DNA of 64,000 nucleotides from Gemmatimonadota bacterium (GTDB lineage: Bacteria > Gemmatimonadota > Gemmatimonadetes > Longimicrobiales > Gaopeijiaceae): NCBI GenBank assembly GCA_034521595.1, contig JAXHMG010000003.1, positions 832,001 to 896,000 of the forward strand, in the 5' to 3' direction. Positions 38,795 through 40,692 of this stretch are shown piece after piece. Position 1 is the first letter of the stretch. Each line of letters starts with the position of its first letter. A program made the translations under genes and the position numbers. Below the pieces are notes generated by a model. That model ran no database searches. It was not told the origin of the DNA and was given only the letters and a program-made list of their open reading frames with translations.

Positions 38795-39661
38795 GTGTCC
38801 ACGCTCTACTTGGTCAGCACCCCGATCGGCAATCTCGGGGACTTCACGCCCCGGGCCGCCGAAACCCTCACGGCCGTTTCGCGCATTCTCGCCGAGGATA
38901 CCCGGCGCAGCCGCGTGCTGGCGGATCGTGCCGGATCGACGGCTCCTTTGGTTTCGCTCCACCAGCACAACGAGCGGGAGCGGATCGAGCGCATCCTCGA
39001 GTGGATGAGCCGTGGGGAAGATCTCGCCCTGGTTTCCGACGCCGGCACTCCCATCGTGTCCGATCCCGGAGGGCGGGTGGTCACGGCGGTGCTCGCCGCC
39101 GGCCACGACGTGGTGCCCATCCCCGGGCCGAGCGCCGTCTTGGCGGCGTTGGCGGCGTCCGGCTTGCCGGGGGAGCGCTTCACGTTCCTCGGGTTTCCGG
39201 ATCGGAAGGGGGCGGCGCGCCGCGACCTCGTTCGTAGGATCGCGCGCAGCACGGAAACGGTGGTGCTCTTCGAGTCCCCCGTCCGGGTACCCCGGCTTCT
39301 CGTCGACCTCCTCGAGGCGTGCGGCGCGGACCGGCGCGTTGCCGTGGCGCGCGAGCTGACCAAGGTCCACGAGACGATCTTGCGTGGAACCCTCCGGGAA
39401 GCGGTCGCCTACTATGAAGAGACACCGCCGAAGGGAGAGGTCACGTTGGTGGTCGAGGGTGTACCGGCCGAGCAGCCCGCGCCCCTGGATGAGGAGTGGG
39501 TGCGCGAGCAGGCACGTGAGCTCCTCGATGGCGGGATGCGGCCGTCGAGAGCGGCGCGCGAGTTGGCGCGCCGCTTCGAGGTGGGCCGTAACGACGCGTA
39601 CCGTATCGTGCACTCCGTGACGGATGCGCAAGCGCCGGGGGACGGTCCCGAACAGGAATGA
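38795..39661 (+). CDS. rsmI: 16S rRNA (cytidine1402-2'-O)-methyltransferase
   Basis: LYLVSTPIGNLGD, AEDTR, VSDAGTPIVSDPG, PGPSA, ARELTKVHE. Confidence 0.96.
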   Translation: MSTLYLVSTPIGNLGDFTPRAAETLTAVSRILAEDTRRSRVLADRAGSTAPLVSLHQHNERERIERILEWMSRGEDLALVSDAGTPIVSDPGGRVVTAVLAAGHDVVPIPGPSAVLAALAASGLPGERFTFLGFPDRKGAARRDLVRRIARSTETVVLFESPVRVPRLLVDLLEACGADRRVAVARELTKVHETILRGTLREAVAYYEETPPKGEVTLVVEGVPAEQPAPLDEEWVREQARELLDGGMRPSRAARELARRFEVGRNDAYRIVHSVTDAQAPGDGPEQE

Positions 39662-40692
39662 CGAGCTTAGCAGCCCGTGGCAGAAGTCTGGTGGCCCGGA
39701 CCCGTGCTGCGCCCGGGTGCCCCGGGAGCGGCACGGCCCGCGATCCTATGGCGGAGTCCCGAAGGCGTAGCCGTAGCTACGTCGAGGGGCTCCAACGACG
39801 GGGGGCACCCGCGCCCGGAGGGCGTGGGTCGGGCCGTGCCGCCCCGGGCACCGCCGCGCCAGCGGTGGTCCGAAGGGCACGAGGGGACCAACGCTATCGC
39901 GTCGGTGCCCGCGGCCGCATGCGGCGTTGGCTCCTTTCGCCGATGCTACGGCATCGCCTTCAAGAAGCCGCCTTGCCTGCGGCGCGCAAGACCCTCGTGC
40001 GCGGGCCACCAGACTTCTGCCACGGGCTGCTAGTGCTGGTGGCGGTGTTGGTCCTGGGAGCTCCGGGGCTGGGAGCCGCGCAGGTCGGTGACTCGCTGAC
40101 GATCGCTCGCCTCCAGTATGGAGGTGGAGGGGATTGGTACGCGAACCCGTCGTCGCTCCCCAATCTCCTGGCGGCCGTTCGTGAGCGGACCGGCATCGTC
40201 ACGGCCCGTCGTGAAGCCGACGTGGAGCCGCTCGATCCGTCGCTTTCGGATTTCCCCTACCTCTACATGACGGGCCACGGTGAGGTGCGGTTCACGCCCC
40301 AGGAACGCGCGGCCCTCCGCACGTACCTGACGTCCGGAGGGTTCTTGCACGCGGACGACAACTACGGGCTGGACGAGTCGTTCCGCCGCGAGGTCGCCGC
40401 GTTGTTCCCCGATGCCGAGCTCACCGAGATTCCGCCGGACCATCCGGTCTTCCGTGCCTATTACGAGTTCCCGGACGGCTTGCCCAAGATCCACGAGCAC
40501 GACGGAGCCCCGCCCCAGGCGCTCGGGATCTTTCACGGAGGCCGGCTGGTGGTCTTTTACTCGTTCGAGTCCGATCTGGGTGACGGGTGGGAGGACCCGG
40601 ACGTGCACGGCGATCCTGCTGAGGTGCGTGAGGAGGCCCTGCGCATGGGTGTGAACCTCTTCGTGTATGTTCTCGGCCAGGAGGCTTCGTGA
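39658..40692 (+). CDS. DUF4159 domain exported protein carrying an in-frame 121-codon insertion near its start
   Basis: RLQYGGGGDWYANPSSLPNL, PYLYMTGHG, GGFLHADDNYG, GLPKIHEHDG, DLGDGWED; ATG overlaps the rsmI stop (ATGA). Confidence 0.88.
   Translation: MTSLAARGRSLVARTRAAPGCPGSGTARDPMAESRRRSRSYVEGLQRRGAPAPGGRGSGRAAPGTAAPAVVRRARGDQRYRVGARGRMRRWLLSPMLRHRLQEAALPAARKTLVRGPPDFCHGLLVLVAVLVLGAPGLGAAQVGDSLTIARLQYGGGGDWYANPSSLPNLLAAVRERTGIVTARREADVEPLDPSLSDFPYLYMTGHGEVRFTPQERAALRTYLTSGGFLHADDNYGLDESFRREVAALFPDAELTEIPPDHPVFRAYYEFPDGLPKIHEHDGAPPQALGIFHGGRLVVFYSFESDLGDGWEDPDVHGDPAEVREEALRMGVNLFVYVLGQEAS
39750..39797 (+). repeat. 48-nt structured hairpin motif, copy 1
   Basis: GGCGGAGTCCCGAAGGCGTAGCCGTAGCTACGTCGAGGGGCTCCAACG; 35/48 identical to the reverse complement of 39925-39972. 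Confidence 0.85.
39925..39972 (-). repeat. 48-nt structured hairpin motif, copy 2 (inverted)
   Basis: Minus strand reads GGCGGCTTCTTGAAGGCGATGCCGTAGCATCGGCGAAAGGAGCCAACG; differences from copy 1 preserve pairing. Confidence 0.85.

What the first reader, a model, noticed from the sequence alone, without database searches (positions are those of the whole stretch)
39750..39972. Two inverted copies of a 48-nt hairpin motif with near-perfect covariation inside the element
Seen: copy 1 (+, 39750-39797) and copy 2 (-, 39925-39972) align without gaps at 35/48. Twelve of the 13 differences form six compensatory pairs. The outer stems are GGAGTCCC/GGGGCTCC versus GGCTTCTT/AAGGAGCC, and the inner stems CGTAGC/GCTACG versus CGATGC/GCATCG. 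The CGTA tetraloop, the GAA/GA internal loop and the GGC...AACG flanks are invariant. Both copies keep a T-G wobble at the same stem position, which pairs only on the strand written. Inference: structure is selected rather than sequence, and it is strand-specific. The element therefore presents the same fold on either strand or in either transcription direction. This looks like a protein-recognised ssDNA/RNA motif (REP/REPIN-like doublet logic inside a TIR element) and may be an undescribed structured element family.
Basis: partly seen in the sequence, partly recalled or inferred. Interest (0 to 1): 0.85.

Follow-up and report, generated by a model that had tools for sequence, protein, structure and literature searches.

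The report
One-strand hairpin core shared by mini-transposons
The two hairpins are the folded core of a small gene-less jumping element; the same one-strand fold, rich in G-A mismatches, recurs inside mini-transposons with unrelated ends in many bacterial groups and resembles the base of the long-known ERIC repeat of E. coli, but what reads it is unknown.

Summary
Observation confirmed: 35/48 identity, six compensatory pairs. Both copies lie in a 365-bp MITE (39668-40032; about 22 copies in the genome) whose 31-nt ends match a 1.5-kb DUF772/DDE (IS1182/IS5-like) insertion sequence of relatives; that IS lacks the hairpin. This copy sits in frame in a signal peptide. The hairpin is a short form of a rod found in 119 loci from about ten bacterial groups, inside MITEs with unrelated ends. 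Elsewhere its 'outer stem' is largely tandem G.A pairs that swap as a unit with Watson-Crick pairs; G.A outnumbers T.C 761 to 7, so one strand folds. Base-to-tip distance takes two values 10 bp apart. In one genome the folding strand follows replication (20:4), not transcription. A model built only from E. coli ERIC-type repeats ranks window copy 2 first (E 0.007, rough); the reverse searches are not significant. The tip was noted once in Geobacter. No HUH/RAYT partner was found; the loop and T-G wobble are not conserved. Best reading: a protein-read single-stranded DNA rod (45%); RNA role 30%. The scan noted this MITE before in this genome, and conserved cores under swapped ends on other DNA.

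The parts
39668..40032 (.). MITE, 365 bp counting both terminal TA; adds 363 nt to the empty site
   Evidence: 31-nt perfect inverted ends; 18 copies with both ends plus 4 with a worn or different end in G000; uninterrupted gene in 6 of 6 congeners
39668..39698 (+). left terminal inverted repeat (first TA = probable target duplication)
   Evidence: its first 20 nt match the ends of a 1.5-kb IS in G311, G128, G076
40002..40032 (-). right terminal inverted repeat
39731..39839 (+). arms closing rod A (39731-39739 with 39831-39839)
39921..39977 (-). rod B (copy 2 plus base box); its 10+11 flanking letters are identical to an E. coli ERIC-type copy
39699..39722 (-). nested small hairpin cassette
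39803..39830 (+). nested small hairpin cassette
39846..39870 (+). nested small hairpin cassette
39886..39910 (-). nested small hairpin cassette
38795..39661 (+). upstream gene, TP_methylase family (RsmI-like; that name is my recall)
39658..40692 (+). DUF4159 gene; the element is inserted in frame after codon 4, inside the signal-peptide region
   Evidence: ORF open across the element; Pfam DUF4159; congeners start at the same stop-overlapping codon without insert

Best explanation
The element is a MITE moved in trans by an IS1182/IS5-like DDE transposase that recognises its ends (ends shown, movement inferred). Its cargo is one or two copies of a rod that folds on one strand only, because tandem G.A pairs stack like normal pairs while the complementary T.C do not (conservation shown). 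I infer that the rod forms in single-stranded DNA, at forks or in transposition intermediates, and is read by an unidentified, widely conserved protein at two G.A boxes held in helical phase. That binding would help short elements be copied or retained, which would explain why unrelated end families carry the same core. Two inverted rods let the element present the fold whichever strand is exposed.
For: Same core inside MITEs with many unrelated ends in about ten bacterial groups, absent from the cognate IS (no hit in L152, L159, L161, L163; best E 0.7 in L023, L198, L202, L203). Tandem GA/AG and WC/WC swap as a unit (36 and 47 of 121 rows; 4 mixed). In 55 distinct copies not selected by my pattern the apical tandem still has G in 51 and A in 53. 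Base-to-tip spacing: 43 short, 41 long by 10 bp, none between, 2 outliers, 14 unassigned of 100. Folding strand equals the leading-strand template in 20 of 24 assignable single rods of G842 (p 0.0015), where transcription shows no trend (4 sense, 2 antisense, 4 both, 12 none of 22); same direction in 10 of 14, 15 of 22 and 9 of 13 in three other sets. IS1182 and most IS5 groups show little orientation bias themselves (PMC3971601, passages); attC sites show this orientation in sedentary integrons (PMC5371416, passages). End variants are mirrored at both ends in 22 of 27 cases, as strand-level copying would give.
Against: No protein partner found: flanking genes are heterogeneous, no Y1 transposase or cognate IS in G000. 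The replication bias weakens to p 0.03-0.06 when ambiguous windows are forced or total skew is used, and none of the other three sets is significant (p 0.13-0.27); strand was inferred from GC skew in 20-kb windows that I centred on the best hits. In Gemmatimonadota single rods transcription also fits (8 antisense, 1 sense). Long forms come largely from one lineage, so two lengths may be two ancestors. Tandem G.A is equally an RNA motif. 21 of the 22 mirrored variants are shared between copies and may be inherited.
Confidence: 0.45

Rival explanations
1. The rod acts in RNA. Elements land at TA in stop codons and operon junctions, are co-transcribed, and the fold sets mRNA decay or makes the insertion tolerable, as reported for ERIC in Yersinia; two inverted rods work in either direction of transcription.
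For: ERIC is reported to alter mRNA stability in an orientation-dependent way through RNase E (review PMC2229807, passages). Many copies abut gene ends. Single rods of Gemmatimonadota lie antisense to the entering gene in 8 of 9 cases. Contigs of two metatranscriptome runs carry related elements (no strand or level, DNA not excluded).
Against: No orientation to neighbouring genes in the broad set (7 antisense, 6 sense, 4 both, 26 none of 43 single rods; crude gene calls) or in G842. One-sided G.U changes are rare next to two-sided ones, A.C is as common as G.U, loops are not GNRA/UUCG, and no promoter-like site was found in 39600-40100.
Confidence: 0.3
2. No reader exists. The core is an old palindromic passenger; template switching between arms makes the paired changes, and G.A mismatches persist because a fold on one strand only avoids cruciform damage.
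For: Template switching explains two-sided changes, mirrored ends and the conversion of G.A tandems to perfect stems in the window copies; avoidance of the lagging-strand template is what purifying selection would leave. Copies are mosaics and some rods are broken by cassettes (2 of 18).
Against: It does not explain fixed letters in the base box across phyla and E. coli, the two discrete lengths, or why elements with unrelated ends keep the same core.
Confidence: 0.18
3. REP/REPIN logic: the rods are substrates of an HUH (RAYT/Y1) transposase and the inverted pair is a REPIN captured between IS ends.
For: Inverted doublet layout; DNA-type GNA triloops in the nested cassettes (sequence; triloop stability is my own knowledge).
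Against: No Y1_Tnp in G000, none beside 80 loci; single-rod elements are as common as doublets; rods are nearly always inside TIR pairs.
Confidence: 0.07

Closest known systems
ERIC/IRU/RU-1 repeat of enterobacteria (127-bp MITE; review PMC2229807)
   Same: TA-ended palindromic MITE; base box identical over 21 of 21 letters in one K-12 copy and 18 of 21 in three more of 13; tandem G.A, G.T and short apical stem; arm length as in the long rods; in-frame fusions occur. The ERIC label for L286-L298 is my recall plus the layout; the record does not name them.
   Different: Different ends; 21 more nt between the boxes; 6-bp rather than 8-bp apex; one rod, not two; models from this family do not find ERIC significantly.
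[quoted passage not shown]
   Same: The printed central palindrome is the reverse complement of this motif's tip; also reported in other Geobacter and Desulfotalea.
   Different: Called RNA, not tied to MITEs, G.A tandems or IS ends; the alignment figure could not be read as text, so identity rests on 19 letters of a legend.
IS1182/IS5-like DDE insertion sequences and their MITEs
   Same: Ends and YTAR target shared with a 1.5-kb IS encoding DUF772 + DDE_Tnp_1 + DDE_Tnp_1_6.
   Different: Best NCBIfam score (IS1182, 172 bits) is under the 270 cut-off; a close plasmid relative is annotated IS5; the IS has no rod.
Rickettsia palindromic elements (RPE)
   Same: Palindromic insert kept in frame in a protein gene; one frame is open in 12 of 18 copies.
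   Different: RPE1 profile does not hit the element; DNA-level comparison could not be made.
Integron attC sites (works-like only)
   Same: One-strand fold; folding strand mostly on the leading-strand template (PMC5371416).
   Different: No integrase, no cassette array, no R/L boxes tested; bounded by transposon ends.
REP/REPIN with RAYT
   Same: Inverted doublet of hairpins.
   Different: No RAYT found; longer rods inside DDE-type ends.

Membership tests
MITE | short, no transposase, terminal inverted repeats | tested here: met
   365 bp, 31-nt perfect ends
MITE | dispersed copies with unrelated flanks and empty sites | tested here: met
   empty site in 6 of 6 congeners
MITE | target-site duplication | tested here: inconclusive
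   TA at both ends in 14 of 18; 4-mers identical in only 4 of 18; one IS copy suggests 4 bp; congeners too diverged to fix the length
MITE | autonomous partner with the same ends | tested here: met
   G311, G128, G076, G064; not found in G000, G002, G004, G143
IS1182 family (partner IS) | transposase over the family cut-off | tested here: not met
   171.9 bits vs 270
ERIC | about 127 bp with ERIC ends and consensus | tested here: not met
   different length and ends
ERIC | homologous central rod | tested here: inconclusive
   ERIC-only model: window copy 2 first, E 0.007, 8 of top 9 hits are rods; reverse models E 0.33-3 or none
ERIC | RNase E-linked mRNA decay | not testable with these tools
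   only contigs were served
REP/REPIN | linked RAYT/Y1 transposase | tested here: not met
RPE | RPE1 peptide profile | tested here: not met
   no positive control rang
RPE | DNA homology of the central hairpin | not testable with these tools
   no RPE-bearing DNA obtained
Rfam families | match at gathering score | tested here: not met

The most novel reading that the evidence does not exclude
The rod is a pan-bacterial, strand-specific single-stranded-DNA signal that ERIC, the Geobacter repeats and many undescribed MITE families all carry under interchangeable transposon ends; a conserved host or helper protein binds its phased G.A boxes and lets gene-less elements outcompete their parent IS. 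This would give ERIC a defined functional core and a mechanism of amplification.
Probability: 0.3. Interest if true: 0.85.

Novelty: new variant of a known kind. Interest (0 to 1): 0.62.

Why it matters
MITE interiors are usually treated as decayed filler. A core that is kept across phyla while the ends are exchanged implies a selected function apart from transposase recognition. The link to ERIC, known since 1990 without an internal DNA motif (PMC2229807 says none was found), would make the question testable in E. coli K-12: which strand folds, what binds, and whether orientation to the fork matters.

Tried and rejected
Rfam: none at gathering score in the window; only chance hits at 39600-40100; none on the motif in 20 other loci, V_AS5 weakly on two ERIC-type loci. 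Plasmid and phage BLAST: only short chance hits; no pattern match in viral contigs. Own-genome transposases: no DUF772, no Y1, two IS5-type DDE loci with other ends. K-turn rejected by inspection (no 3-nt bulge). RPE link: profile search negative without a positive control; two Rickettsia plasmids and 80 Rpn-bearing contigs gave no significant rod. Sequencing runs: contigs only, no clean empty-site joint, small shares uninformative. Papers: 9 searches; motif strings hit only PMC2700814 meaningfully; none described a core shared between MITE families, but subscription papers are not searched. Seen as passages only: PMC3733652, PMC2700814 (plus one irrelevant supplement; the figure of interest was not readable and 6 files were not searched), PMC3767692, PMC3184786, PMC2229807, PMC10969869, PMC5896051, PMC5371416, PMC3971601. 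Not held: the RPE, Chunjie and Yersinia ERIC primary papers, so Chunjie was not compared. The middle (about L079-L105) was cut and not seen.

Full report
Observation. Twelve differences form six compensatory pairs; the last changes G.T to G.G. Each folds better on the written strand. Rfam has no matching family.

The element. Both copies lie between 31-nt perfect inverted ends at 39668-39698 and 40002-40032. The genome has 18 copies with both ends and 4 with a worn or different end, 226-387 bp, built of rod A, an inverted rod B and up to five small nested cassettes. Related DNA occurs in 16 of 41 genomes, G000 included, and the end pattern in 30 of 301. In G311, G128 and G076 the same ends bound a 1.5-kb IS encoding DUF772, DDE_Tnp_1 and DDE_Tnp_1_6; its best NCBIfam model is IS1182, below cut-off. 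It was found in 1 of 5 MITE-rich genomes tested and not in G000, which is 93% complete. Junctions are mostly YTAR; a TA duplication is the simplest reading, since 4-mers agree in only 4 of 18. The window copy adds 121 codons in frame after codon 4 of a DUF4159 gene; all 6 congeners have the uninterrupted signal region. Titles of the nearest named records and earlier scan notes place the host in Gemmatimonadota.

The motif is older than the element. Most of those I could view lie in 150-390 bp elements with unrelated ends, holding one rod or two inverted rods (middle cut). Model R1 found 128 matches in 96 sources and none in four IS loci, and rods in 12 of 140 other genomes of the phylum, a lower bound. 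Flanking ORFs of 80 loci (139 scanned) are mixed housekeeping genes with one DUF772 transposase and no HUH or reverse transcriptase.

What is conserved. In 121 distinct copies 16 of 17 pairs change on both sides and no shuffle of 500 reaches the score (seed alone 9 of 17); the alignment leans to the model and copies are related. The common form is a rod of tandem G.A pairs separated by single C-G pairs; the window copies have turned the central tandems into normal pairs. At one site GA/AG (36 rows) and WC/WC (47) exchange as a unit, with 4 mixed. Opposed non-paired letters are G.A 761, T.C 7, G.T 134, A.C 130. Seven columns were chosen for being G.A and over half the rows came from a pattern that fixes them, but the 55 distinct unselected copies agree. 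So G.A, not the wobble, makes the fold one-sided. The distance from base box to tip is short in 43 and 10 bp longer in 41 of 100 loci, with none between, 2 outliers and 14 unassigned; long forms are dominated by one lineage.

DNA or RNA. Single rods show no orientation to neighbouring genes in the broad set (7 antisense, 6 sense, 4 both, 26 none) or in G842. In G842 the folding strand is the leading-strand template in 20 of 24 assignable cases, 6 ambiguous (p 0.0015; 0.03-0.06 under other treatments). Three other sets point the same way without significance: 10 of 14 Gemmatimonadota singles (where 8 of 9 are also antisense to the entering gene), 15 of 22 rods A in G000, and 9 of 13 K-12 repeats (origin and terminus recalled). 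IS1182 and most IS5 groups are reported with little bias (PMC3971601), while attC sites show this orientation (PMC5371416). RNA runs gave contigs only. The balance favours DNA modestly.

Link to ERIC. Weak R1 hits in low-GC contigs recalled ERIC. Thirteen K-12 repeats were collected from the aceF-lpd copy; naming them ERIC is my recall. One carries the 10+11 letters that flank window copy 2 exactly, at 56 instead of 35 nt spacing; three more match 18 of 21, against 14-16 for the best background places. A model from 11 of these repeats alone ranks window copy 2 first of 24 hits in 36 loci (E 0.007, rough calibration; loci chosen for holding rods), and 8 of the top 9 hits are rods. In the other direction R1 finds nothing and the long-form model R2 gives E 0.33-3 for 3 of 13, in register. 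Homology is likely for the base box and open for the rest.

Prior description. PMC2700814 prints the tip palindrome for 24 Geobacter elements called short RNAs. Nine paper searches found no account of a core shared between MITE families; subscription papers and several primary papers were not available.

Mechanism. Shown: MITE anatomy, partner IS, conserved one-strand geometry, absence of the rod from the IS. Inferred: movement by that transposase; folding in single-stranded DNA; a protein reading two phased G.A boxes (45%). Rivals: an ERIC-like RNA stability element (30%), an unread passenger shaped by template switching and purifying selection (18%), a REPIN-type HUH substrate (7%).

Verdict. 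Real, and a new variant of a known kind: a palindromic MITE of the ERIC/RPE sort, with a cross-phylum core not yet described as such. Interest 0.62; 0.85 if the shared protein-read signal (30%) holds.

Noticed in passing
L314:10307-12345 (G842): An IS1182-type element sits at CTAG with about 230 bp, including a whole single-rod MITE, repeated directly on both sides: possibly a very long target duplication spanning a folded target.
   Followed up: partly
G000 C2:153008 and C3:67312; L152, L154: Two separate insertions share the same non-TA right junction, and junction 4-mers often differ left and right; may mean the terminal letters are carried from the donor site.
   Followed up: partly
L178, L179 (G120): Direct tandem arrays of four 175-bp single-rod units, joined at worn ends.
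   Followed up: no
L285:380-450 (E. coli C, nuoL-nuoM): A different E. coli intergenic repeat has the same tip as low-GC contig repeats L268/L272; similar DNA in 723 of 5426 genomes at E about 0.4.
   Followed up: partly
window 39699-39910: Four nested 24-28 nt hairpin cassettes; in 2 of 18 genome copies one interrupts rod A itself.
   Followed up: partly
G000 C3:2566515: A second copy appears in frame in a lipoprotein-like signal region.
   Followed up: partly
G000 C3:2133483-2133537: A lone canonical single rod outside the family with these ends.
   Followed up: no
L022 (G000 C2, near 126600); L181, L187: Other IS or MITE elements sit directly on the recreated CTAG at an end of this family.
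   Followed up: no
window 39661-39678 (-): The left junction creates a weak terminator-like hairpin on the minus strand.
   Followed up: no
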